From the NCBI GenBank assembly GCA_031539165.1, contig JAVKLK010000033.1, positions 1-63,022 of the forward strand: a stretch of 63,022 nt of DNA, read 5' to 3'. Positions 6,181-39,808 of this stretch are shown here, in pieces. The notes under the pieces were generated by a model, which ran no database searches, was not told where the DNA came from, and worked only from the letters and a program-made list of their open reading frames with translations. The stretch's first letter is position 1. Each line of letters starts with the position of its first letter. Origin of the DNA: Patescibacteria group bacterium. GTDB taxonomy: Bacteria; Patescibacteriota; Gracilibacteria; BD1-5; UBA2023. A program made the position numbers and the translations under genes.

Positions 6181-6255
6181 TGGTTGCGGAGGTTCGAATC
6201 GAACGAACGACCTCCAGGTTATGAGCCTGGCGAGCTACCACTGCTCTACTCCGCG
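6181..6255 (-). tRNA. initiator tRNA-fMet (anticodon CAT)
   Basis: Reverse complement is CGCGGAGTAGAGCAGTGGTAGCTCGCCAGGCTCATAACCTGGAGGTCGTTCGTTCGATTCGAACCTCCGCAACCA. It folds as a cloverleaf with a C1:A72 mismatch typical of bacterial initiators, a CTCATAA anticodon loop and an encoded CCA. Confidence 0.9.
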
Positions 6256-6338: not shown

Positions 6339-6413
6339 TGGTGCCAATGAGTGGAGTCGAACCACCGACCGCAGGGGTATGAATCCTGTGCTCTACCGCT
6401 GAGCTACATTGGC
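6339..6413 (-). tRNA. tRNA with CAT anticodon (elongator Met, or Ile2 if lysidine-modified)
   Basis: Reverse complement is GCCAATGTAGCTCAGCGGTAGAGCACAGGATTCATACCCCTGCGGTCGGTGGTTCGACTCCACTCATTGGCACCA. Paired 1:72, anticodon loop TTCATAC, encoded CCA. Confidence 0.85.
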
Positions 6414-15837: not shown

Positions 15838-15954
15838 CGGTCAAAAGAAGAACGAAGGAGTACATTTAGAAAATCATTCTATCAGAAAGGAAGTGATTTG
15901 CGATTGATTTTCAAAATATATATCCGATAATGATTCGGTAATCCGTTGTTATTT

Positions 15955-16512
15955 ATGCAGACGTTTCTTAAAACAGAACAAGACGGGAACCGAGTAGAGT
16001 TCCTTGTCGATACCAATATCTTCTCTCTATCAAGCATTCTCAAGGCATCCTATATGTTTTTGGATGTTGCCTATTTCTTCTTCCGCAAGGACGAACAAGG
16101 AAATGTTGTAGTCCAAGTCACCAGAAAAGGTGACACTGGGATTGCTCCTGAGAGCCTCATCCGAGACTACAGTGATGAACTTCTTGCCACCGTTCTCCGA
16201 GAAAATCTTGAGCGAGACAACAAAGAAATTCGTGAAACTATCGTAAAAACCGCTCTTGGCGGGTATGCGGATGTACGAGGACATACGTCTGTAAATACAA
16301 ATCAGTATTCTCAGAATCTAATAGATTTTGATAAAGATATTGATGAAATCCTCAAAGAAATTGAAAGTGATCCAGATCTTCAGATAGACCAAGCAGAAAT
16401 CGATGCCGTTCTCAAAGAGATAGAATCATCTGAATCAAAGCGTAAAAATGGAAGCGTAACTATTGATCCTAATAAAGTTAAAGATGCTAAAGCAAAATTT
16501 TGATCTCGATAA
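15955..16512 (+). CDS. hxsD: HxsD-like protein with acidic repeat tail
   Basis: ATG 15955 (track TTG 15946). VEFLVDTNIFSLSSILKASYMFLDVAYFFF resembles the small His-Xaa-Ser system protein HxsD. The C-terminal tail carries the repeat IDEILKEIESDPD / IDAVLKEIESSES. Reads through TGA 16501-16503 to TAA 16510-16512. The family call is from memory of the family, not a search. Confidence 0.5.
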
Positions 16513-16690
16513 AGAGCTATACTCTGCATCCTCAATAGACACAACACTTGAGGCCTTTCAAGAGGGGTTTGAAGATGTGTATTTCAGTCGAACCGAATCT
16601 GGAATTGAGATACATGCAGAAAGTAAGGATGCCATCGAAATTGCCTTCTTGGAATTCGTGACCTACTGTACTTCTGTTTCTTCCCTATAG
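16484..16690 (+). CDS. second small HxsD-like protein (68 aa)
   Basis: ATG 16484: MLKQNFDLDKELYSASSIDTTLEAFQEGFEDVYF...IAFLEFVTYC. Overlaps the end of the previous CDS in another frame and stops 3 nt before the radical SAM gene. Confidence 0.4.
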   Translation: MLKQNFDLDKELYSASSIDTTLEAFQEGFEDVYFSRTESGIEIHAESKDAIEIAFLEFVTYCTSVSSL

Positions 16691-16693
16691 CTT

Positions 16694-18172
16694 ATGAGTA
16701 TGAATCTCCTTTCGCTTGCAAAAAATATCCATCCTAGTGTAGGATTCTTTCGATTCAAGAAATTGAATGGAAAAATTCTGATAACAAATGAAATAGGTGG
16801 ATGGCACTTCCTTGATGAAGATGAGTTTGCCTCATATGTTCAGGGTAAACTTGAGGATGGACCTTTATATGAAGCGTTAAAAAACAAGCTCTTTATAAAG
16901 GGACCCGATTATGAGGCTCAGATGGCAGCGGTATACCGGAAAAAAAATTCCTTCCTATTTTTCGGACCAACACTACACATGATTGTAACTACTCTTCGGT
17001 GTAATCATGCCTGCAAGTACTGTCATGCGGCTGTAGCCCCAATGACCGCAAAAGACTTGGATATGACAGTAGAAACAGCGGAAAAGGTTGTTGATACCAT
17101 CTTTTACTCATCGTCACCAAATCTGACCATTGAGTTTCAAGGAGGAGAAAGTCTGGTAAACTGGAAAGTTGTACAGTTTGTAATAGGATATGCCAAACAA
17201 AAGGCGTACTTTCTAAAAAAGAATCTTACCTTCTCTTTGGTCACCAATCTGTCTTTGATGGACGATGAAAAACTTACATATCTTCTAGATGAGGGGATTA
17301 ATATCTGTACGTCACTTGATGGAGATACGGAAACACATAATGATCAGCGAGTTTGGAAAGATGGAAATTCATATGAGAAAGCCACCTATTGGATTAAGAA
17401 AATAGAAAATGAGATGAAAAAGCGATGAGATGAATCCTACAAAGTATGAGCCCTAACTACTTGGACAAAAACAAGTATAAAGAATTATAAGAAGATAATT
17501 GATGCCTACGCATCTCTTGGAATAAACACAATTGGATTTAGATGGCTGAATCCGTATGGGTTTGCGGCTGCGCAAAAAGCCGACATGAGTTACTCTCTTG
17601 AAGAATATAAGGCTTTTTATAGGAATTGAATGGACTACATTCTTGATTTAAACAAGAAAGGGGTCTATCTTAGAGAAATGATTTCATCAGTATATCTGCA
17701 AAGCATACTAACAAACGAAGGAACTCAGTTTATGGATATTCGATCTCCTTCTGGGGTAGCACTATGATGAGTGGCATACAATTATGATGGGAAGGTCTAT
17801 GCGTCAGATGAATCACGCATGCTTTGAAGAATGGGCAAACAAGATTTTCTTCTCACTCCTATGCTAGAAACTGGAGAGGCCACATATACAGCCATGGCAA
17901 ACTCAGATGTGACAAAAATCGCAACTCTTGCAAGTACTTTGGATGGATTACCAGGATACAATGACTCTGTTTACAAACCCTATATGGGAACGGATATTAT
18001 CTATTCCTATACTCAATACGGGAATCCTTATAGTACTTTTGCGAAAGATGAGAAGAATAAAATGCATCTCGTAACTCTAGATTATCTGTTTGAAAAACTC
18101 CAAGATCCAGAATCAGCAAAAATATTCAAAAGCTGGGTATTTGGTGAAGATTTTCTAAAATCAGAGGCCTAG
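16694..18172 (+). CDS. radical SAM maturase, HxsB/HxsC-like (rSAM-1)
   Basis: Track ORFs 16694-17428 and 17831-18172 share a frame, joined through six TGA codons. CNHACKYC (CxxxCxxC) and FQGGES. N-terminal FRFKKLNGKILITNEIGGWHFLDEDEF is typical of peptide-maturase rSAMs. No Cys after the core. Confidence 0.85.
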
Positions 18173-18231
18173 CTGGTTCTTCTTGATTCTCGAGATTTAC
18201 ATGCTATACTTAAGTCACTAACATCACTATT

Positions 18232-18717
18232 ATGAGCATTAAACCAAAAAAGGAGCTCCCAAAAATTAAAAAAAATCTCTCTGGATTTCTGACACCAGAG
18301 AGCTCAAAAATAAAAAAACTTGATGCACTCGCTCTAGCAGTTGGAGCACTCGCCCTACTATGAGGTGTATCGGAAGCAGCAGCAAGCCACTCTAGCTCTA
18401 TAACTCCATCTCATAGCAATGCTGGAAGTCATGGAAATGGAGGAATCCAATCTGGAACCGCCTCGCACGTGAATGGAAATGGTATTGATGGAACAGTATG
18501 GTATAACCAAGGATTTGCAAACTGCGCCGTGAGTCAAGTAGTGAATTGACACGTAAGTGGAAGTATCCCGAGCCAAGTTCCTGGAACGGCAGATATTTCT
18601 GGATGAAATATTATGGGGACAAATTTATCTGCACACTCTAACAGCACAGTAAACAGTCACGCGAGTCATGGAAGTCATGGAAGTCATGGAAGTCATGGAA
18701 GTCATGCTGCTTACTAA
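18232..18717 (+). CDS. hxsA: His-Xaa-Ser repeat protein, putative RiPP precursor (HxsA-like)
   Basis: 161 codons. Lys-rich N-terminus, one hydrophobic segment LDALALAVGALALLGGV, then scattered SHSS, SHSN, SHGN, SHVN, GHVS, AHSN, SHAS, ending SHGSHGSHGSHGSHAAY. Three in-frame TGA codons. Confidence 0.75.
18664..18708 (+). repeat. tandem 9-nt coding repeat (agtcatgga x4 plus agtcatgct)
   Basis: Encodes (Ser-His-Gly)4-Ser-His-Ala at the C-terminus of the HxsA-like CDS. Confidence 0.95.
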
Positions 18718-18726
18718 ATTTTAGAC

Positions 18727-19422
18727 ATGAACAAAATAAAACAGTCACCTCAGATTATTATCGCTAGTATTCTGGCGTTTCTCATAGGATGTGGAGCTAT
18801 GTTCGCATGGTCTCAGCTACAGCATGTCTGAAATGGGAAATCAGAGAAAAAAGAAACTCGTGAAATGGTGCAAAAAAATTCTTCTGGCACTACTACCGGA
18901 ACCTGAGAGGTACCTTCTATTCGGATACCAACCCAATCTGATGTGTTTATGCAGAGCTTCTCTTGAATTATAAATGGAGAAGGATTTGATGCAAAGTTCA
19001 CAGCATACGGTCAAGCAAAAAAAACCATAGGCGACTATATAGCGAATGGAAGTGGTGGAATCTTTTACGAGTATCCAGGAACCGATTATGTAGTTCCGTC
19101 CCTTTTTGTCTGTGAAACCCTTACAACAGCAAAGAATATGAAAGACTTTGAAGGAGAGCTCCGGAATTCTATTCGCAAGTACCAAAGTGTTTTTACAATA
19201 CAGTCTAAATCTTCAGAAAACCCTGATTTTAAAATGCTCAATGAACATCTTCAGTCGTTTATATCAGGAAAAATACCATTTGAAGCATATCAAAAACTCG
19301 TAAGTCCTCTTCTTCAAAAATATGAGAAAGAGAGCAAGCTTTTTTCTTTCTTTCAAGAACTTATTGATATGAAAAAGGATGACACAGTTGACTGTGCCCA
19401 GCTCTCAAGAAAATACTTCTAA
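18727..19422 (+). CDS. putative lipoprotein
   Basis: ATG 18727, 9 nt after the precursor stop. Signal peptide with lipobox FLIGC. Joined through three TGA codons to track ORF 19138-19422. Confidence 0.6.
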
Positions 19423-19425
19423 GTT

Positions 19426-20898
19426 ATGTCCCGCGCCCATATACAATTTAGGGGGGTTATCGCCGATATTGACCAGAAGAAGAGTGGATGACATTTTCCC
19501 GATCAGCTCATTATTCGGGTTTGAAAATGATGTAACTTTCGTTGTGCCTTTTGTAATGTTGCAGAAAATGAAAAAGTCTTAAGCATAAAGGCATCACTCA
19601 AGGAAATTCTTGCCATAACCTTCCGCAAGATTCTTCATTCGAATCTTACCTCTGGAAGGATTAATGTTACCGTCTCTTGAGGCGAACCAAGTATATTTCA
19701 GGCAGAAACTATTTTTGTATTGAGATATTTTCGAAAGTATTTTGAAAAAAGAGGAATTACTGCTCAATTCGATATTCAAACGAACGCATCAAATATTGAT
19801 CAGAGATTCTCCGAAATACTCAAACAGGAATGAGTGGTTCAAGCTCTTGTTTCAACACATGCTCATGATCCCGATATATACAAAAAAATTATTGGTGTTC
19901 CCTATGAAACTCTGGGAAAGAAGGCTGAGCTAGGAATACGCAATCTCATCGAATGTTGAATTCCCGTTTCTCTTAATATAGTAATGAACTGAGTAAATGC
20001 TGATCATTACTTTGAACATATACAATACCTCGTTGCCTCTTTCCCAGAGATTGAACTTTATAACCTGGGTATGATGCAGCCTCACTGAATGGCACAAAAG
20101 AATTTAGAAGAGCTCTATCTTCCTTACGAAAAAGGACACCATCAGTATAACAGAGCAATTCACTATCTTAAGTGAATTGGGAAACGAGTTCATTCACATC
20201 TCGTAGGGCCACCTGTATGCTATATGGACGATGTAAGCTCAAGTCTTGAGTATCTTCATAACCGGAACATTTTCAGGGAATGACCTCAATCACAAACGCT
20301 TATTCAGGATATCAATGATGATAACAAAACTCATACCTCAGCCTGCAGAATGTGCAGAGCCAAGAGAGTATGCAGTGGAACATGGAAAGAATATGCTGAC
20401 AAACAGACGCTCCATCCAATCCCCACTGGACAATTTCTTATAAGCTCAAAATGATGCCATATATTTGAGAATAAAGCTGCTGCTGAAAAGCTTTATTCTC
20501 AAGGAATTCGTGAAGTATTCATTCTTGGAAAAGACAGTAATCAAATTATTGATGACATTGCTACGGTTAAGAATATCTGATACGAATCTATCATTTTAGT
20601 AGATACATTTGAAAATGTGAAAAATCCTTCGGACATATCCTGAGTAACAATTCAATCTTGGTTTGAAGACATGAAGAAGTACGGTCTTCAGAAGCTGCTT
20701 CATATAGAAAGATACAACCGAGAGAGTGGATTTCAGTTCCAGATTGACTCAGATGTACATATTCCCTATTTATCTTCAAAAGAAGCTGAGTGGATAAATC
20801 AACACCCTTTTCCAAGCATAGTATACCATGTTCACTCCTGGAGTCATGAGGCAAAGATGAAATGTCAAAATCGTTCAAATATAGTTTTCTGAAAATAA
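19426..20898 (+). CDS. radical SAM protein with C-terminal Cys motif and ~170 aa extension (rSAM-2)
   Basis: ATG 3 nt after the previous stop. IIRVGKGCNFRCAFCNV (CxxxCxxC). VSGGEPS with the first G encoded by TGA 19678-19680. Later CRMCRAKRVCSG (CxxCx5C). More than ten in-frame TGA codons. Tail matches track ORF 20671-20892. Confidence 0.85.
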
Positions 20899-20901
20899 CA
20901 T

Positions 20902-22347
20902 ATGAAAGTGGTAATTTTTTGATTTGGAAGACAAGGAAAAAAATATGCCTCGTATTTTAAATCCAAGGGAAATCACCAAATATTGATTGTTGGGAGGCAA
21001 AAAAGAAATGATGCCGATGGGCAGAAATATTGTGAATATGAACATTTCTTACAAGAATATAGATATACATCCTTTGATCTTGCGATAGTTGCAGTATCCC
21101 CCTTAAATGAACAAGAAAAGGTCATTCAAAACATTACCGAGCTTCCCATTTCGAAGATTCTCATAGAAAAACCCATAGGGAGTAGCCTGCTCCTAAAAAA
21201 ACTTTGCTCTAGAGAAAATGTTTTTTACTACTTCGATGAACTCTTTCATCCAGTATTCAACATGATGCTCAATCCAGAACGCTTACATATAGAAGCTGAG
21301 GATGAGAGTGATGCAATGAATATTATTGATCATGCACTCTCTTGATTTCTTTATCGAAAAGACTTTGAGTCAATCATATCAAATCTTTCAATAGAATATA
21401 AAAAATGATCTCCCAGCTATACTATTTATGAAAACGGAGAGACAATCGTTCATAAAGATGGAAATCTATCGTTCGGGAATCATGCTTTCTTCGAGTTAGC
21501 TTTTGATGCTGGAGTAAAATCTACTCTAGAAAGTATGGAAGATCCTGTAATCTGGGAAACAATTCGTATAAATAGCATATTCCTCCGGGAGTTTACGGAG
21601 CGCTGGAAACAAAAAAAGAATGTAGACTTATTTATAGGATTAAATGAATGTGAAGGACAATGTTTATTTTGTAATAAATGAGTGGGTCTCGTATGAGTTA
21701 CTGAGAGTGGAAAACAAAGTCAAGAAAACTGCATCCGCTACACTCCAAAAACAGAGGCAGAAGTATTCAAGATTGCAAAAAAGTGTTGGTGAAGTCCTGA
21801 AGTAATAACTATAACGGGATACGAGCCTATTCTTTACCCCAGGCTTACGGAACTACTTGACATAATTAGGGAAAGTAATCCCTCGGCCAAGATTCGCCTA
21901 AGAACGTCTGGATTTATAGAAATAAACCCAGTTCTCTACGAGAAGATAGATGGCGTCGAGCTTCCTATATATGGCTCAACTGAATTCATTCAAAATGCCA
22001 TGGGGGGCAACACAAAAGCATGGGAATGACTGCAGAAGAATATTGAAATAATCCAATCATATTGATTCATTGGGAAAATATTTTTTCAGACCATTCCTCT
22101 TCGAGAAAATATCCACGATATCAAGCATATACTTAACATGGTAGATGCTCTTGGAAATCAGAATGAGTTTCGGATTATATACCCCTATTTCATGCCAACT
22201 ATTCATATGGAACAGTTACTAAGTCGTGCAGAGGTGATAAAAACACTTCTGTCTGAATTGCCAGAAGTACTGAGAAAAAAATGTACTTTGGTTAACTTTC
22301 CAAGAAAACCATATTTAGATAACTTATTTAGAAGCATATGCCACTAG
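20902..22347 (+). CDS. Gfo/Idh/MocA-type NAD(P)-binding domain fused to a radical SAM domain (rSAM-3)
   Basis: N-terminus MKVVIFGFGRQGKKYASYF (GxGxxG, with one G encoded by TGA) and ILIEKP (the EKP signature). C-terminal half has CEGQCLFC (CxxxCxxC) and ITITGYEPIL. Joins track ORFs 20983-21345 and 22138-22347 in one frame. Confidence 0.8.
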
Positions 22348-23057
22348 TATCACGCCCTGTTTGATTCTGATTTAATATTCTCAGTGATGCTAAAAGCGAA
22401 TTTCACAGTCTGTTTCATGGAAATGAGATGGCAAGTTATTGCAAAATCATAAGTAGTGAATCTCACCCTGATATTCCAACCATAAAAGAAGTATATTTTT
22501 CATTTTGGAAAACAAGCGCCTACTCAAACGGAATTTTAAATTTTACAGAACTTCTCTCTCGGAGTCATTCACAAGAAGTACCAAAGATAGAAGCTCTATA
22601 CGAGAATCTTCTCAAGAAACAGTGAAAGCCAGGGGAAATATGAGAGATACACTACGGAATAGATTACTTAGACCATGATTTAGCCATATATTTTTGTTTT
22701 AAGGATAAATTAACTATCACAAAACTTCTTTCGGATGCATGTAAACTTCCGGAGGACTTTTTTTCGGAGTTCTTTTGGGAAGAGGCACGGAGGTTTCATC
22801 TTAAAATAAAGTACCATAGAAATGGGCAGGATATATCTGGAGTATTCACTTCGCATAATACCCCCGATATCAATGGCTTCCTCAAGTTTTTATCGAAATA
22901 TGAATCCGAAAAGCTCAAAGATATAGAGGCATATCACTCTAAAATAAAGGAAGAGTTTGTTATATATAATATTGAGTACTCGTTTAATTTTACAAAATGA
23001 AAGCTTGAAAATGTAGTATATTTCGTACTTCCTCGGTTTTGAGAGATTAGTGAGTAA
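22338..23057 (+). CDS. hypothetical protein
   Basis: ATG 22338 overlaps the previous stop by 10 nt (alternative ATG 22428). Includes track ORF 22428-22625 and reads through TGA codons to TAA 23055-23057. No motif recognised. Confidence 0.5.
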
Positions 23058-23784
23058 GTGACTGGTCTTTATATTTCTTTCAGATATGGAGATATCCGAG
23101 ATAGAGCGTCTTCATATCCGCATCGAATGCATTCCTAAGATCAAGCTGAATTCTTGAAAAGAATATTCTCCAAAAACGAGATTCAGAGAATTTATCACGC
23201 CAAAGATAATCTCGAAGGCACGACTTCAGGAAATGGATATCACAGCTCGAATTTATAAATAAAATAGCAAAGTCCTCTTCTCGAAAGGAGTAGCGTAGAG
23301 ACATAAAATCAAGGATTCCAATATCTCATGTTTCCATCTCAAAGAAATTGGAATTATCGAGACTTCCATGAATTAAAACTTTGCCAGAATCATTTTGGAT
23401 AGCATGAAGCGAAGATAGGGTAGCCCCCAGTTTCCCTCCTGTCTGAACAGAATACGTTGGACGTGTCGCTCATTTGCGCACATTCTCTATCTTGAGAAAT
23501 GAATAAGGTCATAGCTCACCTGAATCAATAATTCTTGGTATACGAATAGAGGAATCAGCAAGCAATTGATAAAAGTAATATTCCTTGTCCCTCTCGTGAG
23601 AAGAAACATAAAATTTATAAACCCACTGATATGCTGGATTAATGCAAACATACCCATAGTTTCCTGTAACTACCCGGAAGCCCTGCCCAGATAAAAAATC
23701 GTTCGGAAGAAGAGAGATAACTTCAGTCTTTCTCTCTTCCAATAAAACTCTTCGAAGCCGAATATCCTGGAAAAAATCGTTCAT
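23047..23784 (-). CDS. APH/choline-kinase-like phosphotransferase-fold protein
   Basis: Track ORFs 23509-23784 and 23080-23304 share a frame, joined through TGA codons. VLIHGSLDNSNFF (compare HGDLGDSNIF of aminoglycoside kinases) and GILDFMSLRYSFREEDFA (DFG-like region). Confidence 0.6.
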
Positions 23785-23840
23785 ACGTTATATAGTACTC
23801 TCTACCCTCTCGTTCTGGAAATTAATTTGCGAGGAAAAAA

Positions 23841-25136
23841 ATGAAACATACACTTCCCTCAAAAAGAAAGTTTTCTGTTAAAATGCCAACATTACTTGAG
23901 TCACTTCTCTGAGAATACGGTTCGCTTCTTGCGTGCTCCTTATTAGAAGTTCCAAGTTTCTCACAAATAGAAGAAATAGTGCAGAATACGGCAGTTCCCT
24001 TATCTACAAAAATTGCTGCAGCATCCAGACTGGAAAATATACCCTTCACCTCAGACGTATTAGATTTTCTTTGAAATGAAGAGATACATCCATCAATCCA
24101 AGCCGTCATAGTCAGTAAGTTTACCTTTGGGAAAGAAGTTAAGATTCTTGATTTTACAGATAGAATAAGTGATCTCCCCCTTCTAGTCCGGGAAGTTTTC
24201 TGGGCAGTTTTACCAATTCAAAGACGTGACATAGCTCAGATTATGAAGTCCACTTTGAGCCTATCAGAAAAGCAAATATTAGCTAAAAGAGCTCGAAATA
24301 GCATGCCTTCTCCAGAGCTATCATTTTGATTTCAAAGAATGCAACACTATCTCTATACCTGAAAGAGAGAAAGTAAATCTAATGCAATTAGTTGATGAAA
24401 TGAAGATTTTGAGAAACAAAAAACAATAATTGCATTGAAATTACATAAGCAAACCGAGCCTATATCAGTCAGCGAATACTGAATCATTACAGAAAATTCT
24501 CACTTCAATTCTTCTACCAGAGAAAAACATGCAGTTGCAGTAAATCGATATCAGCTTTCTCTTCTTCAATGGAAGAATCATTTCAAGATTATACCAAACA
24601 AAAGGAATCTTATTTTTTATTACAGGAAAGAACAGGGGGCTTTTGATCCGCACTACATTGAGATGGTACGCTTCTTAAAATGGTATATAGCTTCTTCCGG
24701 GTCACCACTATATACGGATATAAAGATAGCCCTTCGAGATAGGTCAAGTTTATTGCATGCAAAAAATATTTTCGGGGGAGAAGACTCTGACTATATCAGT
24801 GAAGAGTGACCCTTATTTCAAGCAAAGACAAGTGTTTTCTCAGATATGATTCACTTAAACCATGGAACTCCTGAAAAAACACCAGGGAGTTTAAGTATAG
24901 TCTGAGATGCAATTGCATCAGATCCTGAAAAATACTGCCCGTCATATATCCCCTTGCATCTTCTCTACTTTGGTGGAAGTAACTACACAACGATATATAG
25001 AAACTATAAATGAATACTACCAGGAAGTAACGAACTCGGTTTCCCTATGAATAAAAGTATGCGAGAGATTCTATCAGAGCTATTCGATGCTATAAGATGT
25101 GCTGAACTCACTCAATTGAAAAACGCTTGAATATAA
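23841..25136 (+). CDS. hypothetical protein (431 aa)
   Basis: GAGGAAAAAAATG ribosome-binding context at 23831-23843. The frame is open from 23841 to TAA 25134-25136 only when about nine TGA codons are read as sense. No motif recognised. Confidence 0.6.
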
Positions 25137-25166
25137 AATATTAAAAGTTGCCGAAGGAAAAACGAA

Positions 25167-26516
25167 GTGTACACTTTGAGCATGAAAAATAATCTTCTCG
25201 CCAAAGAAAAAACTACGAAAGAAAATCGAATTTGGGTCAGAATTGCAGCAGCCTGCAATGAGAAATGTAAATTCTGCCTCGATAGCGAAGCGCAGGATGG
25301 TCGATTGATTCCGGAAGATGAGGTAAAGCAAAAGATTCGCGAGGCTTTTGTTGCAGATACATATAATAGAGTGATTCTCTCATGAGGAGAAGCAAGCATT
25401 AATCCAAAGTTTTCTGAGTATATACAGTATGCAAAAGAAATTGGCTACAATCGGGTGCAGACGGTCACAAACGGTAATATGTTCTTCCGAAAAGAATTTT
25501 GTGACAAAGTAGTGAACGCCTGATTGGATGAGGTTACATTTTCAATGCACGGACACACTCCAGAGCTACACGATTATCTTACAGCAACACCCGGATCTTT
25601 TAAACGTGCACTTATCGGAATAGCAAACCTAAGAAAGTATCATCCTCATGTAATACTCAATATCGATATCGTGGTGAATCGACTCAATGTATCATTTCTT
25701 CCAAAAATAGTCTCCTTGTTCTTGAGATTTGGAATTATGGAATTCGATATACTCCAGATAATCCCCTTCTGAAGAGGTTTCAAAGAATTCAAAAATGAGC
25801 TTTTCTATAAAATCGAGGATGTACTCCCTCAGCTTCATGAAACATGGAATCTCTCAAAGATTCCATGAATGTATATTTGGACAAACCGTTTCCCTGCCGA
25901 AGCTTTTGAATGATACGAAGATCTAATACAGGATCCACGGAAAATAAAATCTGAGACTCTCGGAGAAGCAAGAAGTGAATACGATACTTTCATTCAGAGT
26001 CATGGAAAGAAGAAGCCTCGATGCTTCTGAGAAAGATGTGATGTCTGTTTCTTACAGCAATATTGTCATGATTTCCTCAAAAACAAAGATGCTCTTTTAG
26101 ATGGTAGAAAATACATCATTTGAGACAGGGCTTCCGGAGATATATCAGAAGCGGAACTCGTAGTTCTTAGGGGAGAAGAATTTCCAAGTGAGGTATATCG
26201 AAAATATGGGAATAATGGTGAAGAATTCATAGAAAAAATACAATCCCTGAAGCTAACAAAGACACAGCAGATTGTTAACGTACCAAAGTGCATACGAGCA
26301 GAGAATAACTCAGGGCAATATGAATGGTATTGAGATACGAGAGTTATTTGAGATGCTGAAGAATATACCGGACAGTACATTAAGAACTTCTATCGGAAGA
26401 AATCCCCGCGCTGCAAGTCCTGCATTCATTTTGAGAAGTGTGAGGGAATACATATAAATTTCATTCGATCCTATGGATTCCAAATAATGAAACCTATCCA
26501 GAAGAAAGAAGCATAA
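25167..26516 (+). CDS. radical SAM protein with C-terminal Cys-rich region (rSAM-4)
   Basis: Track ORFs 25167-25385 and 25524-25772 plus the downstream frame. AACNEKCKFC (CxxxCxxC). ILSGGEAS with a G encoded by TGA. CFGERCDVCFLQQYC and RCKSCIHFEKCEG near the C-terminus. GTG 25167 follows AAGGA; alternative ATG 25182. Confidence 0.85.
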
Positions 26517-26565
26517 ATCTCTGAAAAAGGTTGCTATTGTCGGAATTTAGGATTATATATTCGGT

Positions 26566-27555
26566 ATGGCAAACATCTGATACATCCAAGTAAATCGATA
26601 CTGCAACAATCAGTGCCATTTTTGTTCAAACCCATCAAACGGAAAAAACATAAGCTATGAAAGAGGGCAAAAGATTATCGATGAGTTTGTATCAAAGAAA
26701 TACAAGGGAATAATATTCACAGGCGGTGAGCCAACTCTATCTCCCGATTTAGCTCGTTGGATAGCATACGCGAAGTCTGTATGAATGGAATCTCGAGTAA
26801 TATCAAACTGAATGCGCTGCTCAGATTTCTGATATACAAAAAAACTTGCAGATGCTGGACTAGAACTCATTCACTTTTCTGTATTTTCGTACAATCCAAA
26901 AGTACACGACTTCCTCACAGATACTCCAGGATCATGGAAAAAACTAATGCTTTCCATATGAAATGCCCTAAAACTGGGTATTAGAGTTCAAATCAATACG
27001 GTCATTAATCGCTATAATCAGAACCATCTAGATGTAACAGTGAAATTTCTCTGTGGACAATTCCCAGAAATCCGTCACTTTGTATGGAACAATCTCGACC
27101 CCCTCATGATGCGAAAAACGGAGATTGCATACTCTACACTTCCAGATTTCTCTACATTTGAGAGGCCACTACAAAAGGCTATGACTTTTTTAGAGGAAAC
27201 TGGAAGAACATTCCGGGTGGAACGGGTACCTCTTTGTTATATGAGAGGCTTTGAGCATTTCTCAACAGAAACCAGAAAGATAGTCAAGGATGAAGAACGA
27301 ATTGTTCACTTCCTAGATGAAAGAGAAGTGGTAGAGCAAAAGTCAGAGTGGTTTTTTCATGACAAATCAGAGACTTGCAAAGGCTGTGATTTGAATGCAA
27401 TTTGTGCTGGAATCTGGCTTGCAAAACCAGCAAATATTTTCTGAGTCGATCATCCATGATATTTCAAAGATATCGAATATAAACCTCAAAAGCTTTCCTT
27501 GCAAGAAAAAGAGCTTATTATCTCAAAAATTAAAAATACTGGCAAATATGCCTAA
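26566..27555 (+). CDS. radical SAM protein (rSAM-5), paralogue of rSAM-4
   Basis: MANIGYIQVNRYCNNQCHFC (CxxxCxxC), FTGGEPTL, HDFLTDTPGSWKKL (compare HDYLTATPGSFKRA in rSAM-4), and C-terminal CKGCDLNAICAG. Includes track ORF 27040-27444. Confidence 0.85.
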
Positions 27556-28435
27556 TATTATTATCAATAATATCTGTAATCAGCGCTGCAGCTATTGTTT
27601 CGCAATGGATAGTATGACAGTGGATAAACTCCCCTTGCAGAATCAATCACTCGGAACATACCTTCAAATATTAAAATTCCTGAAAAAAGAGGGGGAGAAA
27701 GAGGTTCGACTTCTATGAGGTGAACCCCTTCTACATCCAGAAATATCAAAGTTCATAAAAATTGCCAACAAAGGGTGATTCTACACGCGAATATTCTCTA
27801 ATATTAATTTCTCTCCTGAATTTCTCCAGAAAACACTTCAGGGAAATAGCATCCCCAATGCTACTAACTGCAATATCAATAATCGTGATTTCTATTCAGA
27901 TAGCGAGTATGCTCAAGTGAAAAAAAACATTATTTACCTTCGAGAGAGCGGCTGTGATGTAACGATTGGCTACAATGTATACTCTTTAGAAAAACCATTC
28001 TCGGATATAATAGATATTTCAAGGAGCACGGGAATTCGGAGAATTAATCTTAAGGTTACCAATACCGCGTTGGGATCCCCCCTTATTGTTGACACATCAT
28101 CTAGAGAGTTTGGTAAATACTTAGCTACGGCTGTCATTCCATATCTCGGAGAATTTGAGTTCCTATTTTCTTGTTGATTAAGCAAGTCGATTTTCAGTGA
28201 AGAAGAAATTACCACCATGAATCAGCACTGACTTCTGCCAAAATGGTGATGCGATGGAAATATGGGAAAATACGATATAGATGTAGACGGATCAATATTT
28301 AAATGCTTTCCAACTCGTCCCCTTTACCTAAAGAAATCTATTCATATAAGCAATTTCTCTCCGAGACAAAAATCCATAGAAAAATTTGCTCAGCTAGAAA
28401 ACTCTACCGACATATGCATAGCTCATAAACTTTAA
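27548..28435 (+). CDS. radical SAM protein with partial SPASM/twitch-like motif (rSAM-6)
   Basis: ATG 27548 overlaps the previous stop by 8 nt. NNICNQRCSYC (CxxxCxxC). LLGGEPLL with the first G encoded by TGA. GCDGNMGKYDIDVDGSIFKCFP resembles the start of a SPASM domain. Includes track ORF 27917-28177. Confidence 0.8.
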
Positions 28436-28439
28436 ATCT

Positions 28440-29501
28440 ATGTTTCCTTTTACTCTCTGATATTCAGAAAATCCCGTTGTTCAAAAATATCAAGACTTAT
28501 ACGCAAAAGATCTCCTAGAAATAGCAATGGAGCTAGAGACATCTTTTGAGAAAATGGATTCTAAATTTCTCCTTCTTGGAGATATATCAACTACGCTTGA
28601 AGCTTTTCGAGCCAAGGAGTTAGAGGCAAGTGAAGCGCTAAAATTTCTCCAACAAGAGTTTGAATATTGGAAATCGAACTGTAAATCACGTATGTTTTCA
28701 TTTTCATGAAACAGTATCCCTGGAGTAGCAGTGCTTCTCTCAGAAAAAGACGCAAATATCCATGCACGAGTACATGATGGACACCCTGAACATGTGCGAA
28801 CCAATGTCGTTTGATGATGGGGGAAGGTTCCAGTAGAAGACTGGATCACCCTCTATGAGAAAAGCTTTTCAATTCTCAAAACATCCTCACCCTGATTCTG
28901 CAATGAACTTTCATGAATCATAAATAAAATAATTCCAATGGACGTGAGTATCAGGGTACATAATTCTTGCTCGTATGATCGATGCATATGACATCTTTAT
29001 TTAAGTTACCCCTTGGAAATAGATGTCCCCGAACTAGCCGTACTTGAAGCTCTCATACATGAGTCGAACCACAATAAATTAAACCTTATTCTAAAGCAGG
29101 ATCCCCTCGTTCTAAATGGACGTGAAACCAAATATTATTCCCCCTACCGCCCAGATGCGCGACATATTCATGGGATTTACCTTGGACTCCATGCAATGGC
29201 TTGAGTATTTTATACACTATTCGAACTTCACTCAACTGGGAAATATCTTCTCAATCATCGATGGCTAGAGAAGGCAACGGCATACTTCATCAAAGATAGC
29301 CTTTCTATAAAAGTACTCGATCGATATGCACAACTTACAGATCTTGGGAAAACTGTCTATGAAGAAATGAAAGCGGTTCATGAAGAAACCGCGAAAATGG
29401 TTAGTCAGTGTGTAACACCCGATATTCTTAATAGAGCAAAACACATAAATCAGGAGCATTTTATGAAAGTGCAGATGATTCACTCAGATTTGTTATATTA
29501 A
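28440..29501 (+). CDS. HExxH-motif domain protein (family co-occurring with rSAM peptide maturases)
   Basis: ATG 4 nt after the rSAM-6 stop. LIHESNHNKLN (HExxH), then YSPYRPDARHIHGIYLGLHAMA. Joins track ORFs 28527-28709 and 29013-29204 in frame. Confidence 0.65.
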
Positions 29502-30728
29502 TTAAAGGTGGAGGGCACTTTGAATCCAGCGAAGTAATTCATAGAAGATAGACTTCCCTGATACCCCTGTAATCACCCACCCTAAAAATCAGTAAAAGAA
29601 GAAGGAGGGTGGTTGATGCAGAACAAACTCTCGGAATAAAAAGGCTTCTCCATAATCATGAATTCGTTGTTTGAATGCGGAAAGAAGTGTTAGATGTTTT
29701 GGGACAATAGAAAAAACAGGCTGAGAAGTATCTATTGAGAGAAATGAAAGATCATTCTTTTCAGGATTGTAAGCATTCTTCTCACGAGCTATTCTCATGA
29801 AAGAATCCCAAAGTATAGATGTTTCTTTCATTGCAATCAAATCTCATACCCTCAAATCAGAAACAGGAATACGCAAATTTCCTCAAATCAATGTCCATAT
29901 ACTACGAATCCTAGGAGAGAAATAAAATATCTTCTCTAGAAGAAAAACTGATACTGTCTGCCAGAAAAGAAAAAATATTCCAGCAATAAGAAGTACAGAA
30001 AAGTACGATTGAATAAATACCAAAAGAGATTTATTTTGGAAGCTTTCAAATAAGACGGCAAGTATCATAAGAAGTGTTCCAAATAGAAGCACTCGGAGCT
30101 GTTTCAAAGTGAGTTTTGGAAGAAGAATCATGAGTATTCATGCCTTCATAATCAAATAATTCTCTCTACCAAAACTCACTATAACCCTATCAATATCTAC
30201 GAGTAGCCCCAGTCCAAATGGTGATGCAGAGAGGAAAAAGAGAGATGAGAAAACAAGCATTCTAATTCACTGAATTCCCCAAGAGCGAAATTTAAACGGG
30301 TGTTCCTCTAAGTTTGGAAGAATTCAACCTAAGCCAAAAAAAAGAAGTATTCGTTGAAAGATTGCCAGCAGAAATACTCCTGCTGCCATATTCGACAGAA
30401 GAGCGAAGGGAATGCTTTTAAGAAAACCTATACAAAATATAACACCAAGAGCGAGAATATTTTCAAGCTCCAAGATACGCCTCACATAAACAAAAAATCA
30501 GAGGGAGAAAAAAACAATCAGTGTTAGATAGTCATGAGTGGCTAACTCCGGTCCTAATTCGTGCCTTACCAAAAGGAGGCCAAAGATACAACTCACGAGA
30601 ATCGGGACAATTCAGTACTTTTTTTTCTCAAGGAAACATAGAAATAAGAGTACTACAGCGAAAACCCCCCATTCAATGGAAATGATTGGAGGGATTCCAG
30701 AGAATATAGTGGGGGGAACTCAAGGCAT
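29502..30728 (-). CDS. polytopic integral membrane protein
   Basis: Joins track ORFs 29883-30131 and 29589-29840, extending upstream to ATG (rc 30726-30728) through TGA codons. About 8 hydrophobic segments and a soluble C-terminal part. The start is 1 nt after the upstream stop. Confidence 0.6.
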
Positions 30729-30729: not shown

Positions 30730-33642
30730 TTATCGAATCGAACTAAGAAGCGGTGGTGGGTCCTTAATGAAATTTGGATTATATTCTATGACTACGGGAA
30801 ACGCGGCGAAAGAATCAGTCGTCGTGCTGATAGTGCGTAGTCTTGGGGCAGCGCCAGAACAATTCCCGTCAAGATTACACGTTGCCCCTCCCATAACCTT
30901 CGTAGTGGTATATCGGTTTGGTATTTTAATTCAAGCAGTACCACCAGAATTTTCTGCATCAACCAAGGTGTATCGACGGAGGAAATTTAAATCATACTTT
31001 TGAGCAAGATCTCGGTCACAAGAAGCATTTCCAATAATAGACGGACAGTACACCGGGCTCTTTGTAGCACCTCCAAGAGAGTTTGCGCTGATTACCGATC
31101 CATAGATATAGAGTTGATTCTGAAGCTTATCAATTCCGACACCCGCTCCAAGCTCGTCTGTTCCATCAAATCCAACAAGTGCTCCATCAGCATACAGAAA
31201 TCCTGATATGTTTGTAACAGAAGGATCAATGTAAATATTTCCTCCTTGTCCCGAATCGTCTTTTAGGGCAATAATAGCAAGATTCCCTCCCCCTGTATCG
31301 TACGCAATATTTGATCGAATAAATACATTCAATCCCTTCGTGACAATCGTTCTCTTCCCAGAAACGGTATATACCCCCGAAGCATCCTGAAGCGAAAGTC
31401 TCTGCCCTCCCGATGTAGCTTCATAGAGATATACTACTCCGTCATCTTGTGCAATGGATGCTCCATTAAGCATACTTCAGGATGTGATGCGACCGGCAGC
31501 CATATCAGAAGAACTCAGAGAACCAGAAACAGGCTCTGTTCGAAGTGATCTTGTGCCAACAGAGGCAGCTCGACGAATAGCCAATCGAGTATCTTCCTTC
31601 GAAACTCAAGACAATACGGTCACATTCTCCGAGAATTGATTCGTTGTAATCTGATTTGCCTCATCCGATGCGGTGAGTCCAACTATTTTTACTCCATTTT
31701 GGAGCGTAGTACTCCGAACATCTCCCCAGTAACTCGTTTTTCAAACAACGGGGCCATTTATAACAGCCCTCTTTCCGTCAAAACTGTACGCAAGGTGGGT
31801 AGAAAATACCGTGTTATTCGTTCGTCCAACTGTTGTTCCTGGAATCTGCTCCAGTGTAGTGTAAAGGGGGCTTTGAGTGGAGCTACTCGATGAAGGAAAT
31901 GCAAATTGCTGAGCAAGAAGATTTCGAGATACCCCTATGCTCGCATTCTCCATTGAAAGATGGTCTGTACCAGCATGAAACGTGAAAGAAGGTGTAGATG
32001 AATTATCTACAAACTGAACAGAAATTTCAGGAGAAGCAGCATTCAATGAAGTCTGACTTTGTATTGAAAGAGTGCTCTGCTGAATTGTTCCCTCGATTAA
32101 TCCACCCGTTCGTATGTCTCCAGTAAGTTCCAGAAGATACGGAACTTTCCATTTCCCATCAACAGACGCAGAATCAGAAACTACCGTGTTTGTAAACTGT
32201 GGATCAGTGACTCGAATTCGCATCTCATTAAGCGTAAACGCAGACGATGAATCCGAAGGAGTTGTACCTGGAGCATACCCGGATGCCGTAGGAGCATACG
32301 CTGAAAAGTTCACTCGATACTTTCATGAGTTCACCCCATTTGAAGTAAGTACTCCTGGAATAGAGAACGTCTCCGTACCTACTGGAGCAATGGGTATACG
32401 AACCGAACTCGGATTAGCTGTATTAGAAACAAATACGGCTGAGTCATCTGCTCGTGTATGTTGGTTTAAGTAATTCGTGTTTTTGTACGTAAACTCTTGC
32501 GCAAGAGTTCGATTAATTCCCGATGCAGGAAGAATAGGATTTCCATACCCATCCCTCAATACATACGTGAGTTCATACGGTGTTCCATTTGCTACTGCAG
32601 AACCAGGAGAAATGCTATTACCATCTACTGAAAGCGTTGGGGCATGCATTGGATTTGCATACACCACATAGGAGAATCCTGCCGATCAGCCTGCACAGTT
32701 CCCTGCAGCATCACATACTTGAGTAATATTCCACTGATAGGGGCGTCCAGCATTGCTCAAGTTCTGTCGAACATTGCTGATATCTCCCGTATATCGAATC
32801 GTATAATCTGTCGTAGTTCCAGAAACTGGAGTTTGAGCATTAGTCGTTGCATTGGTAAAGTTTCCCGACCAGCTTGCAAGAGGAGAGCCGGCTCCATCGC
32901 TATATACTGCTGAAAATCCCTGAGCACTGTTTGCTACTAAGTTTGGTCCACCAGAAGAATCGGTGAAGTTCCCCGTTGTTACAACCGGTGGTTGTGTATC
33001 AACACGGTATGTGTTCGATCCATAGCGAGGAACAGAGAGATTTCCTGCCCCATCAACAGCAATCGCAGCAAATTTATAGGCCCGGTTTCTATTGGAACGG
33101 GCAGAATCCGTATATACAATTGATGTGTTTGCGGTCAGTCCTCCAATCTGAGTATACGAAGTCCATCCACTCGAGAAATCTGGAGAAGCGTCCGAGTATG
33201 AAACGTAATAATAGTATCCCGAAAGGTTCGATCCTCCATAATCGGATGCTGTTACCGACACAGAAACACTCGGGTTGTTTGACCATCCATCCGTATAATT
33301 CACTGAGGCGGCCGATGGAACTGTGGCATCCCAGTACTGACACCCAATTCATCCAGCCCAAGCACTGTATACTCTAGCCTGTGCAAGATACTGTATACCG
33401 TATGTACCTGGATAGAGACTATCGAGAGAAGGGTTCGGTCCAGTGCCGTCAAACTGACCATCAGCAGAACACTGGGTAATGCTTGAGCCTGTAGAAAGAG
33501 AATACCCGCCATACCAAGCAGCAGAAGTGGTCTGCATGCAAGCAAGAAGGATAAGTATGCCACATGAAATCTGGCAAGAAATCTGAATTAGGCGTGAATA
33601 TCTCATAAAAGGGGAGGTAACACCCCTATAGTAGTACATCAT
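30730..33642 (-). CDS. large secreted/surface protein (~970 aa)
   Basis: Five track ORFs (33349-33642, 32686-33303, 32323-32667, 31741-32313, 30931-31473) share one frame, joined only by TGA codons. Signal-peptide-like MRYSRLIQISCQISCGILILLACMQTTSAAW (alternative start 33606). Ser/Thr/Gly/Asn-rich, beta-rich repeat-like segments such as NTYRVDTQPPVVTTGNF. Confidence 0.7.
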
Positions 33643-39693: not shown

Positions 39694-39808
39694 AGGAAGA
39701 GGGGGGATAATGTGGCTTGCAGTCTAGAGAAAAGCTGGAAAAAATCCACTCATTTTGCATTTTGCGGAAGTCTCGATAGTATCTGCCCTGCAAAGTGTCT
39801 TGATTCAA

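What the first reader, a model, noticed from the sequence alone, without database searches (positions are those of the whole stretch)
20902..22347. Single polypeptide fusing a Gfo/Idh/MocA NAD(P) oxidoreductase domain to a radical SAM domain
Seen: one continuous table-25 frame. The N-terminal ~230 aa carry the GFGRQG Rossmann fingerprint and the EKP signature. The C-terminal ~250 aa carry CEGQCLFC and a GGEP-equivalent TGYEP. I know of no well-known family with this architecture. Inference: coupled dehydrogenation or reduction with radical chemistry on the same substrate, or an in-cis reductant supply.
Basis: partly seen in the sequence, partly recalled or inferred. Interest (0 to 1): 0.65.

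Follow-up and report, generated by a model that had tools for sequence, protein, structure and literature searches.

The report
Rossmann oxidoreductase fused to radical SAM
In a Gracilibacteria genome that reads TGA as glycine, two genes that lie side by side or apart in relatives (a small NAD(P)-type oxidoreductase and a small radical SAM enzyme) are joined into one 481-residue protein inside a large cluster related to the HXS anti-phage system, which ties the two activities to one pathway without showing what they do.

Summary
Window 20902-22347(+) is one open frame under genetic code 25, with 8 in-frame TGA codons and a TAG stop. It carries GFGRQG, EKP, CEGQCLFC and TGYEP at the stated places.

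- **The fusion is real.** Five other public contigs of the same species encode the same 481-aa protein. The one contig whose DNA was read has no indel in 4,074 nt.
- **C half.** It is a radical SAM domain by Pfam (46 bits, cut-off 29.5) and by predicted fold.
- **N half.** It misses Pfam's GFO_IDH_MocA cut-off (21-22.5 bits against 24). A confident model of a stand-alone homologue (pLDDT 94) matches only Gfo/Idh/MocA structures, biliverdin reductase A best.
- **No second fusion.** A HMMER scan of 1.84 billion representative proteins found none. Each half matches separate ~245-aa proteins from code-25 bacteria.
- **In related clusters** the two genes are adjacent (3 loci), 3-4.5 kb apart (2), or only one is present (4).
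- **Context.** The gene sits in a low-GC, 13.5-kb expanded His-Xaa-Ser (HXS) cluster with six radical SAM domains.

The most likely reading is a lineage-specific fusion of two tailoring enzymes that act on the HxsA-like protein. An in-cis electron supply is unlikely. This is a new variant of known kinds and of moderate interest.

The parts
20902..22347 (+). Fused 481-aa ORF (code 25, 8 TGA = Gly, TAG stop). It starts 3 nt after the stop of the upstream HxsC-like gene and overlaps the downstream gene by 10 nt.
   Evidence: The same ORF occurs on five other contigs.
20902..21609 (+). N half (aa 1-236), a miniaturised Gfo/Idh/MocA-fold NAD(P)-type domain. It has GFGRQG (nt 20920-20937), EKP (21166-21174), FDELF (21232-21246) and IDHALS (21325-21342).
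   Evidence: Pfam GFO_IDH_MocA 21.2-22.5 bits, below the 24 cut-off. It is homologous over its full length to stand-alone 225-255-aa proteins. The AF2 model of homologue P0046 has pLDDT 94.4, and Foldseek against PDB returns only Gfo/Idh/MocA structures in the top 50.
21598..21630 (+). Fusion junction ERWKQ|KKNVDL. There is no stop, and the ancestral start codon of the rSAM gene is AAG (Lys238) here.
   Evidence: Stand-alone rSAM homologues begin M-x-[IL]-D-[LI] exactly at this column. In L004 the two genes are separated by TAA plus 4 nt, in different frames. The junction is identical in L001.
21610..22347 (+). C half (aa 237-481), a small single-cluster radical SAM domain. It has CX3CX2C (nt 21649-21672) and the SAM-binding TGYEP (21814-21828). 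No further conserved Cys is present.
   Evidence: Pfam Radical_SAM 46.3 bits against 29.5. AF2 pLDDT is about 90 over aa 280-470. Foldseek hits are GDGT-MAS, viperin, BlsE, DesII, MoaA, SuiB, PqqE and QueE. The family alignment has only the three cluster Cys invariant.
15946..16512 (+). HxsD
   Evidence: TIGR03976, 54 bits against a cut-off of 50.
16694..18172 (+). HxsB, a radical SAM/SPASM maturase
   Evidence: TIGR03978, 464 bits against a cut-off of 370.
18232..18717 (+). HxsA-like putative substrate. It has an N-terminal hydrophobic segment, a His/Ser/Gly-rich body, and ends SHASHGSHGSHGSHGSHAAY.
   Evidence: HxsA4 31 bits (cut-off 55) and HxsA3 27.5 bits (cut-off 65), both below cut-off. 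Sequence.
19426..20898 (+). HxsC-like radical SAM protein with an extra C-terminal region
   Evidence: TIGR03977, 71.7 bits, far below the cut-off of 268. Homologues in other loci are 44-50% identical.
25167..26516 (+). HxsC4-like radical SAM protein, the most conserved gene of the cluster type
   Evidence: NF038332, 124.5 bits, below the cut-off of 500. It is 55-65% identical in L002-L006, L012 and L013.
26566..27555 (+). A further radical SAM gene (CNNQCHFC) that my first ORF list missed
   Evidence: 78% identity over 323 aa to L003 12711-13694.
27548..28435 (+). Radical SAM gene; the start is corrected from 27359.
   Evidence: Pfam Radical_SAM 43.9 bits. Homologues align from aa 64 of the longer ORF.
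28440..29501 (+). aKG-HExxH-type peptide beta-hydroxylase
   Evidence: TIGR04267, 63.3 bits against a cut-off of 40.

Best explanation
The gene is a real, lineage-specific fusion of two neighbouring genes of an expanded His-Xaa-Ser (HXS-type) maturation cluster in a code-25 Gracilibacteria-like bacterium.

Shown:
- One 481-aa protein joins a complete miniaturised Gfo/Idh/MocA-fold domain to a complete small radical SAM domain. The N domain keeps GxGxxG, EKP, Asp-Glu and His. The C domain keeps CX3CX2C and a GGE-like motif and has no auxiliary-cluster cysteines.
- The junction falls exactly at the end of one ancestral protein and the start of the other. The ancestral ATG is now AAG, so the rSAM half cannot start at its ancestral start codon.

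Inferred:
- Both domains are tailoring enzymes for the HxsA-like His/Ser-rich protein encoded four genes upstream.
- The rSAM domain cleaves SAM reductively and abstracts a hydrogen atom from a residue of that protein.
- The Rossmann domain uses NAD(P)(H) for a two-electron hydride step, oxidising an alcohol or reducing a carbonyl or imine, on the same substrate. A candidate target is a Ser side chain or a beta-hydroxyl installed by the cluster's HExxH hydroxylase.
- The fusion holds the two at 1:1 stoichiometry and close together, but it is not required for their function.
For: - The ORF is continuous and recurs in independent assemblies.
- Between the window and L001, 15 codons differ synonymously and 10 non-synonymously, with no indel.
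- Each half is homologous over its full length to stand-alone ~245-aa proteins, and all family-invariant residues are kept in the fused copy.
- The N-domain family fold is Gfo/Idh/MocA. The C half is rSAM by Pfam and by fold.
- In L002, L003 and L004 the two genes are adjacent in the order N then C, within syntenic clusters.
- The cluster holds HxsD and HxsB above their curated cut-offs, plus HxsA-, HxsC- and HxsC4-like genes and an HExxH peptide hydroxylase.
- In E. coli, HXS rSAM enzymes mature the HxsA protein (PMC13128918).
- A radical SAM enzyme paired with an NADPH-dependent reductase is established for AprD4/AprD3 (PMC5461906).
- In L008 a short-chain dehydrogenase gene lies directly upstream of the small rSAM gene, on the opposite strand.
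Against: - No biochemical data exist for either family.
- The two genes do not depend strictly on each other. They lie 3-4.5 kb apart in L008 and L012. The N-domain gene occurs without the small rSAM gene in L005, L006 and L007. The rSAM gene occurs without a visible N-domain gene in L013, which is truncated upstream.
- The fusion is seen in only one species-level lineage, at 96-100% protein identity.
- The N half shows 6 non-synonymous against 4 synonymous codon differences, too few to exclude relaxed constraint.
- The target's own N half was modelled poorly because it had no alignment in that job, so its fold rests on a homologue about 24-30% identical.
- Pfam's cut-off for GFO_IDH_MocA is not reached.
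Confidence: 0.55

Rival explanations
1. The fusion is neutral or incidental. The stop codon and the 4-nt spacer between two abutting genes were lost. The two domains work as independently as the separate proteins do in relatives, on different steps or sites, with no coupling or channelling.
For: The fusion is confined to one lineage. In L004 the two genes are separated only by TAA plus 4 nt, so a few small mutations could join the frames. Gene order and co-occurrence vary among clusters.
Against: The ancestral start codon was also replaced (ATG to AAG), and all family-invariant residues of both halves are kept. The ORF is maintained without indels in diverged strains. These points are also compatible with a neutral fusion, so they only show that the product is not decaying.
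Confidence: 0.3
2. The Rossmann domain passes electrons from NAD(P)H to the [4Fe-4S] cluster of the fused rSAM domain and so replaces flavodoxin or ferredoxin (in-cis reductant supply).
For: Only the architecture itself supports this. From general knowledge, bacteria of this group have small genomes and few electron carriers.
Against: The fold family is hydride-transfer dehydrogenases/reductases, with conserved EKP Lys and His. No Pfam flavin or Fe-S family matched the N half or its 20 aligned family members. The cluster's five other rSAM proteins carry no such domain. The N-domain gene occurs in clusters that lack this rSAM. From general knowledge, NAD(P)H is an obligate two-electron donor.
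Confidence: 0.06
3. The N half is a non-catalytic or differently liganded domain that only resembles a dehydrogenase, for example a substrate- or partner-binding scaffold or a domain binding another nucleotide.
For: Pfam's cut-off is not met. The domain is about 60-100 aa shorter than typical Gfo/Idh/MocA enzymes, and TM-scores are only 0.46-0.63. A profile search against PDB sequences finds only a weak N-terminal Rossmann match to ketol-acid reductoisomerase.
Against: GxGxx[GA], Lys14, Glu-Lys-Pro, Asp-Glu and His144 are invariant or nearly so across a family only 23-31% identical. That pattern is typical of a conserved active site.
Confidence: 0.1
4. The single frame is an artefact, caused by a wrong genetic code, an assembly error or a homopolymer error in the A-rich junction.
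For: The junction DNA is A-rich (AAACAAAAAAAGAATG). Public gene calls on this contig and on IMG contigs give only a 120-aa fragment.
Against: Those fragments end at TGA codons, which is what reading the gene with code 11 produces. TGA aligns with Gly 75 times and with Trp never. The junction DNA is identical in L001, and the junction peptide is the same in the three 481-aa variants found on five contigs.
Confidence: 0.02

Closest known systems
HXS (His-Xaa-Ser) system HxsABCD, shown in E. coli to be an anti-phage defence in which rSAM enzymes mature the HxsA effector (Li et al., Nat Commun 2026, PMC13128918)
   Same: The window cluster has HxsD and HxsB above NCBIfam cut-offs, an HxS-repeat protein and HxsC-like rSAM genes. 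Of all NCBIfam families, the rSAM half of the target matches HxsC best.
   Different: That match is 26 bits against a cut-off of 268, so the target is not HxsC. The cluster has six rSAM domains, an HExxH hydroxylase, an APH-like kinase and the Rossmann domain, where the canonical system has four genes. Its gene order differs from the canonical D-B-C-A order. It lies in Gracilibacteria, whereas 99.7% of known systems are in Pseudomonadota. No defence function was tested, and PADLOC has no hit for the target.
Gfo/Idh/MocA oxidoreductases; the closest structures are biliverdin reductase A (1gcu, 2h63), MviM (3uuw), WlbA (3oa0) and GnnA (7bvj)
   Same: It has an N-terminal Rossmann domain with GxGxxG, an EKP motif after a central strand, a C-terminal alpha/beta sheet domain and a conserved His. 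All top 50 structural matches fall in this superfamily.
   Different: The domain is about 236 aa where typical members have 290-380. Identity to the matched structures is 8-16% and TM-scores are 0.46-0.63. It falls below Pfam's cut-off. The presumed substrate is a protein, not a sugar or a tetrapyrrole.
AprD4/AprD3, a radical SAM diol dehydratase with its NADPH-dependent reductase partner (PMC5461906)
   Same: A radical SAM step and an NAD(P)H hydride step act in succession on one substrate. This is the best precedent for how the fused protein could work.
   Different: AprD4 and AprD3 are separate proteins that act on an aminoglycoside. AprD4 is a larger rSAM enzyme and only a weak structural match (6fd2, rank 33). 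I did not check which fold family AprD3 belongs to.
Radical SAM enzymes with an N-terminal alpha/beta cofactor domain: cobalamin-dependent class B enzymes (CysS, TokK) and methylthiotransferases (MtaB)
   Same: The overall layout is the same, an N-terminal Rossmann-like domain followed by the rSAM core. These appear as full-length but poor matches (rmsd 21-24 A).
   Different: Their N domains bind cobalamin or an Fe-S cluster. The N half here has NAD(P)-type motifs, a two-lobed Gfo/Idh/MocA fold and no Pfam hit to a B12-binding domain.

Membership tests
Radical SAM superfamily (PF04055) | CX3CX2C motif that ligates the [4Fe-4S] cluster | tested here: met
   C250, C254 and C257 are present and are invariant in the 12- and 15-sequence family alignments.
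Radical SAM superfamily (PF04055) | Pfam score above the curated cut-off | tested here: met
   46.3 bits against 29.5, aa 248-413.
Radical SAM superfamily (PF04055) | Partial TIM-barrel fold and a GGE-type SAM-binding motif | tested here: met
   TGYEP lies at aa 305-309 and its Pro is invariant. The AF2 C half has pLDDT about 90 and matches viperin, MoaA, BlsE, DesII, SuiB and QueE at E 1e-5 to 1e-3.
Radical SAM superfamily (PF04055) | Reductive cleavage of SAM to a 5'-deoxyadenosyl radical | not testable with these tools
   This needs anaerobic biochemistry.
Gfo/Idh/MocA oxidoreductase family (PF01408 and the C-terminal domain families) | Pfam GFO_IDH_MocA score above the curated cut-off | tested here: not met
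   21.2 bits for the full protein and 22.5 bits for the N half, against 24. Seven of 20 family members match at E up to 0.01, best 8e-6.
Gfo/Idh/MocA oxidoreductase family (PF01408 and the C-terminal domain families) | GxGxxG dinucleotide fingerprint and the EKP motif | tested here: met
   GFGRQG at aa 7-12 and EKP at aa 89-91. Lys and Pro of EKP are invariant and Glu nearly so. GxGxx[GA] is conserved once W from code-4 translation of TGA is read as Gly.
Gfo/Idh/MocA oxidoreductase family (PF01408 and the C-terminal domain families) | Two-domain fold: Rossmann domain plus a C-terminal alpha/beta sheet domain | tested here: met
   This was shown for the stand-alone homologue P0046 (pLDDT 94.4, pTM 0.90), whose top 50 PDB matches are all Gfo/Idh/MocA. 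The target's own N half was not modelled confidently. Its membership in this protein family is shown by full-length homology.
Gfo/Idh/MocA oxidoreductase family (PF01408 and the C-terminal domain families) | NAD(P)(H) binding and hydride transfer | not testable with these tools
   Inferred only from the motifs.
HxsC (TIGR03977), His-Xaa-Ser system rSAM maturase | NCBIfam equivalog score above the cut-off | tested here: not met
   26.3 bits against 267.9. Within the cluster the C-half family profile is closest to the 26566 rSAM and the HxsC4-like protein, at 25 and 24 bits.
HXS system (HxsA, HxsB, HxsC, HxsD) | All four components present by curated models | tested here: inconclusive
   HxsB (464 against 370) and HxsD (54 against 50) pass. 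The HxsA-like protein (31 against 55; 27.5 against 65) and the HxsC-like protein (72 against 268) do not.
HXS system (HxsA, HxsB, HxsC, HxsD) | Anti-phage activity | not testable with these tools
   Known only for the E. coli system (PMC13128918).
Cobalamin-dependent (class B) radical SAM enzymes | N-terminal B12-binding domain | tested here: not met
   No B12-binding Pfam family matches. The N-domain family fold is Gfo/Idh/MocA.
SPASM/twitch radical SAM enzymes | C-terminal Cys-rich auxiliary-cluster domain | tested here: not met
   Only the three CX3CX2C cysteines are invariant in the family. No SPASM or Fer4_12 hit was found for the target.

The most novel reading that the evidence does not exclude
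The fused protein is a self-contained two-cofactor enzyme, with SAM/[4Fe-4S] and NAD(P)(H). It would start a reaction by radical hydrogen abstraction on a His/Ser motif of a protein substrate and finish it by hydride transfer. An example is net deoxygenation, or reductive or oxidative cross-link formation on HxS repeats, by analogy with AprD4/AprD3 but on a protein. It would act within an expanded six-rSAM HXS-type system that bacteria of the candidate phyla radiation use to build a modified surface or anti-phage effector.
Probability: 0.2. Interest if true: 0.75.

Novelty: new variant of a known kind. Interest (0 to 1): 0.45.

Why it matters
- **A functional link.** The fusion works like a Rosetta stone. 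It ties a previously unnoticed family of miniature Gfo/Idh/MocA-fold proteins to a small radical SAM family, and ties both to HXS-type protein maturation. The chemistry of that maturation is still unsolved, even for the E. coli system (a +8 Da modification).
- **A wider range for HXS-like systems.** These clusters are far more elaborate than the four-gene canonical system, with up to about ten rSAM genes in a row in L005. They occur in small-genome bacteria that read TGA as Gly.
- **An annotation gap.** Applying code 11 to this contig and to related IMG contigs hides the gene. NCBI and IMG list only a 120-aa fragment, 'hypothetical protein' in IMG. Architecture searches in public databases would therefore miss it.

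Tried and rejected
- **Table-25 translation refused.** The representative search would not accept the table-25 translation. I used P0001, a code-4 translation of a 98%-identical strain with W in place of G at the 8 TGA sites.
- **Word-indexed homologue searches.** They returned almost nothing: only P0001, and two N-domain proteins.
- **PDB by sequence.** There were no hits for the full protein. The N-domain profile gave only ketol-acid reductoisomerase Rossmann matches at E about 0.7. The rSAM profile gave weak MoaA and QueE matches.
- **Combined alignment.** An alignment of the fused protein with both half-length families (A5) was misaligned by MAFFT and discarded. As a result, no full-length model has both halves supported, and no inter-domain geometry can be claimed.
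- **Metagenome scans.** The rSAM patterns found nothing. The N-domain patterns found one locus, L007. Two pattern attempts failed because the alignments were too variable.
- **PADLOC.** There was no hit for the target, HxsA or HxsD.
- **Literature.** I found no paper on a Gfo/Idh/MocA-radical SAM fusion or on Gracilibacteria rSAM clusters.
- **Cobalamin-binding N domain.** I considered it and rejected it on motifs and fold.
- **Independent translation of the rSAM half.** I rejected initiation at its ancestral start codon, which is AAG here. The homologous N-terminus (K-N-V-D-L, nt 21613-21627) has no ATG, GTG or TTG codon.
Full report
**Observation.** Window 20902-22347(+) translated with the standard bacterial code is broken by eight stops. 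All eight are TGA, and the frame ends in TAG. The whole window behaves the same way: long ORFs tile it only when TGA is read through. One example is a UvrB gene that scores 953 bits and contains six TGA codons. I aligned cluster genes of the window with homologues from other loci and looked at what lies opposite each TGA codon. It was Gly in 75 of 151 cases and Trp in none. Code 25, not code 4, is therefore correct. The table-25 product is 481 aa. Pfam finds Radical_SAM at aa 248-413 with 46.3 bits against a cut-off of 29.5. It finds GFO_IDH_MocA at aa 1-95 with 21.2 bits against a cut-off of 24.

**Is the single frame real?** The word-indexed protein search found one relative, P0001. It is a 481-aa protein from two ENA metagenome contigs, translated there with code 4. 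The DNA of one contig (L001) is 98.0% identical to the window over 4,074 nt with no gap, and the junction is identical. Within the gene 25 codons differ, 15 synonymously and 10 not. The 90% cluster of P0001 holds three 481-aa variants on five contigs from ENA and Logan assemblies. It also holds 120-aa fragments from JGI/IMG and from NCBI. The NCBI fragment lies on a 63,022-bp contig, which is this window. The fragments run to a TGA codon, so they are what code 11 makes of the gene. The fusion is therefore not an assembly or sequencing artefact, but public annotation does not show it.

**Where the two halves come from.** I ran a full HMMER scan of 1.84 billion representative proteins with P0001. 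It gave 62 hits at E up to 0.001, and none covers both halves. The C half (aa 239-481) matches stand-alone proteins of about 244-252 aa (P0003-P0011, 29-35% identity, E 1e-35 to 1e-23). The N half (aa 1 to about 230) matches stand-alone proteins of about 225-255 aa (P0013 onward, E down to 1e-15). Many of these hits have Trp where relatives have Gly, so they too come from code-25 organisms. The stand-alone rSAM proteins start M-x-[IL]-D-[LI] at the column of the target's K238-N-V-D-L. The stand-alone N-domain proteins end a few residues after the motif that the target has at aa 224-230. The target is thus one complete protein joined to another with no linker, and the ancestral ATG is now AAG.

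**Gene arrangement in relatives.**
- Three Candidatus Gracilibacteria genomes (L002-L004) have syntenic clusters in which the two genes are separate and adjacent, N domain first. In L004 they are separated by TAA plus 4 nt and lie in different frames. In L002 and L003 an ORF-free spacer of about 470 bp lies between them.
- In L008 and L012 both genes are in the cluster but 3-4.5 kb apart.
- L005, L006 and L007 have the N-domain gene but no small rSAM gene within 8-10 kb.
- L013 has the rSAM gene without a visible N-domain gene, though that contig ends 558 nt upstream.

**The N half.**
- By sequence alone the assignment is marginal. The target scores 21-22.5 bits, seven of 20 family members match GFO_IDH_MocA at E up to 0.01, and a family profile finds only a weak Rossmann match in PDB sequences.
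- By structure it is clear. An AlphaFold2 model of the stand-alone homologue P0046 (NCBI Gracilibacteria MAG, 40-sequence alignment) has mean pLDDT 94.4 and pTM 0.90.
- Its 50 best PDB matches are all Gfo/Idh/MocA proteins. Rat and human biliverdin reductase A come first (E about 1e-7), then MviM, WlbA, GnnA, inositol dehydrogenases and glucose-fructose oxidoreductase, with TM-scores of 0.46-0.63.
- Across a family only 23-31% identical, Lys14, the Lys and Pro of EKP, Glu113 and His144 are invariant. Gln11, Glu89 and Asp112 are nearly so. The target keeps all of them.
- I conclude that the N half is a shortened, divergent Gfo/Idh/MocA-fold domain that very probably binds NAD(P)(H). Binding itself is inferred.

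**The C half.** AlphaFold2 with an rSAM-only alignment gives pLDDT about 90 for aa 280-470. The N half, which had no alignment in that job, is poor. Foldseek matches GDGT-MAS, viperins, BlsE, DesII, MoaA, SuiB, PqqE, SkfB, CteB and QueE at E 1e-5 to 1e-3, with no single close relative. Only the three cluster cysteines are invariant, so there is no SPASM or twitch domain. Among curated NCBIfam models the best is HxsC, at 26 bits against a cut-off of 268. Within the cluster the family profile is closest to the 26566 rSAM and the HxsC4-like protein.

**Context.** The gene lies in a co-directional, tightly packed block that coincides with a low-GC stretch (0.36-0.39 against 0.42-0.47 in most of the rest of the window). 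The block contains:
- HxsD (54 bits against 50) and HxsB (464 against 370);
- an HxsA-like His/Ser/Gly-rich protein that ends in SHG repeats;
- a small lipoprotein-like gene;
- an HxsC-like rSAM and then the fused gene;
- two unknown genes and an oppositely oriented APH-like kinase gene;
- an HxsC4-like rSAM and two more rSAM genes (26566-27555 and 27548-28435);
- an aKG-HExxH peptide beta-hydroxylase.

The canonical four-gene HXS system was reported in 2026 to be an E. coli anti-phage defence. There HxsB and HxsC, with HxsD, mature HxsA, including a +8 Da modification of an SHRSS motif. Of known systems, 99.7% are in Pseudomonadota (PMC13128918). The clusters found here are a much expanded relative of that system in Gracilibacteria. 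I found no paper that describes them.

**Mechanism.**
- Shown: one polypeptide, two complete domains with intact family signatures, and membership in an HXS-like cluster.
- Inferred: both domains tailor the HxsA-like protein. The rSAM domain would abstract a hydrogen atom. The Rossmann domain would do a two-electron NAD(P)(H) step of the alcohol/carbonyl type, which is the typical chemistry of its fold family. The HExxH hydroxylase and the many Ser residues offer plausible hydroxyl substrates.
- Precedent: AprD4/AprD3 shows an rSAM enzyme working with an NADPH reductase (PMC5461906).
- Limit: because relatives keep the genes separate, sometimes far apart, and each occurs without the other, the fusion argues for a shared pathway and perhaps proximity. 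It does not argue for obligatory coupling. A neutral fusion remains a serious rival, at about 0.3.
- In-cis reduction of the Fe-S cluster is unlikely, at about 0.06. The fold is a hydride-transfer fold with no flavin or Fe-S family match, the other five rSAM proteins of the cluster lack such a domain, and the N-domain gene occurs where this rSAM is absent.

**Comparison and novelty.** The protein is a member of the radical SAM superfamily, with all testable features met. At fold and motif level it belongs to the Gfo/Idh/MocA superfamily, although it fails Pfam's curated cut-off. It is not HxsC, not a class B rSAM enzyme and not a SPASM enzyme. Neither the databases searched here nor the literature searches showed the combination on one chain. 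A caveat is that fragmentary code-11 gene calls could hide other cases. I rate it a new variant of known kinds: a real and unusual architecture, confined to one lineage, and useful mainly as a pointer to function within an unexplored family of HXS-like clusters.

Noticed in passing
window 20902-22347, and the window as a whole: Public gene calls treat this code-25 contig as code 11. NCBI and JGI/IMG list only a 120-aa fragment of the target (aa 28-147, labelled 'hypothetical protein' in IMG), bounded downstream by a TGA codon.
   Followed up: yes
window 26566-27555 (+): An additional radical SAM gene (CNNQCHFC, 329 aa) was missed by a longest-ORF list. It is 78% identical to L003 12711-13694. 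The apparent ORF 26613-26984 is spurious, and the next rSAM gene starts at about 27548, not 27359.
   Followed up: yes
window about 16000-30000: A low-GC stretch (0.36-0.39 against 0.42-0.47 in most of the rest) coincides with the HXS-like cluster, which suggests horizontal acquisition. I did not look for mobility genes or repeats at its borders.
   Followed up: no
window 30730-33642 (-); L003 17250-18253; L004 12483-12850; L005 15510-17930; L007 3-2750; L013 10916-11290: A 970-aa protein with a hydrophobic N-terminal segment has homologues next to the cluster in five other loci. It may belong to the system, or it may be a second substrate or effector.
   Followed up: partly
L002 3761-4229; L003 9532-9994: A spacer of about 470 bp with no convincing ORF lies between the N-domain and small rSAM genes in two Gracilibacteria genomes. 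In L004 the gap is 4 nt. It could be a decayed gene, an RNA or a small peptide gene. It remains unexplained.
   Followed up: no
L005 716-12939: A Gracilibacteria MAG (GCA_028689115.1, contig of 971 kb) has nine radical SAM genes in one co-directional block together with the N-domain gene, a carbamoyltransferase gene and a PPDK_N-like gene. This is an even larger version of the cluster.
   Followed up: partly
L008 3040-3855 (-): A short-chain dehydrogenase (adh_short) gene with 9 TGA codons sits immediately upstream of the small rSAM gene, on the opposite strand. In that cluster the Gfo/Idh/MocA-like gene lies 3 kb downstream. It is a second NAD(P) enzyme type next to this rSAM family.
   Followed up: partly
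window 22338-23057 (+), 23841-25136 (+), 18727-19422 (+): Three cluster genes have no family match in Pfam or NCBIfam. The 22338 gene has a homologue in the same position in L013 (28% identity), and the 18727 gene has homologues in L002 and L003 (26-27% identity).
   Followed up: partly
window 6181-6255 (-), 6339-6413 (-), 39809-39891 (+): There are two tRNA-Met(CAT) genes 84 nt apart and one tRNA-Leu(CAA). No tRNA-Gly(UCA) lies in the window. The ORF 39795-40208 in a longest-ORF list overlaps the tRNA-Leu and is probably spurious.
   Followed up: no
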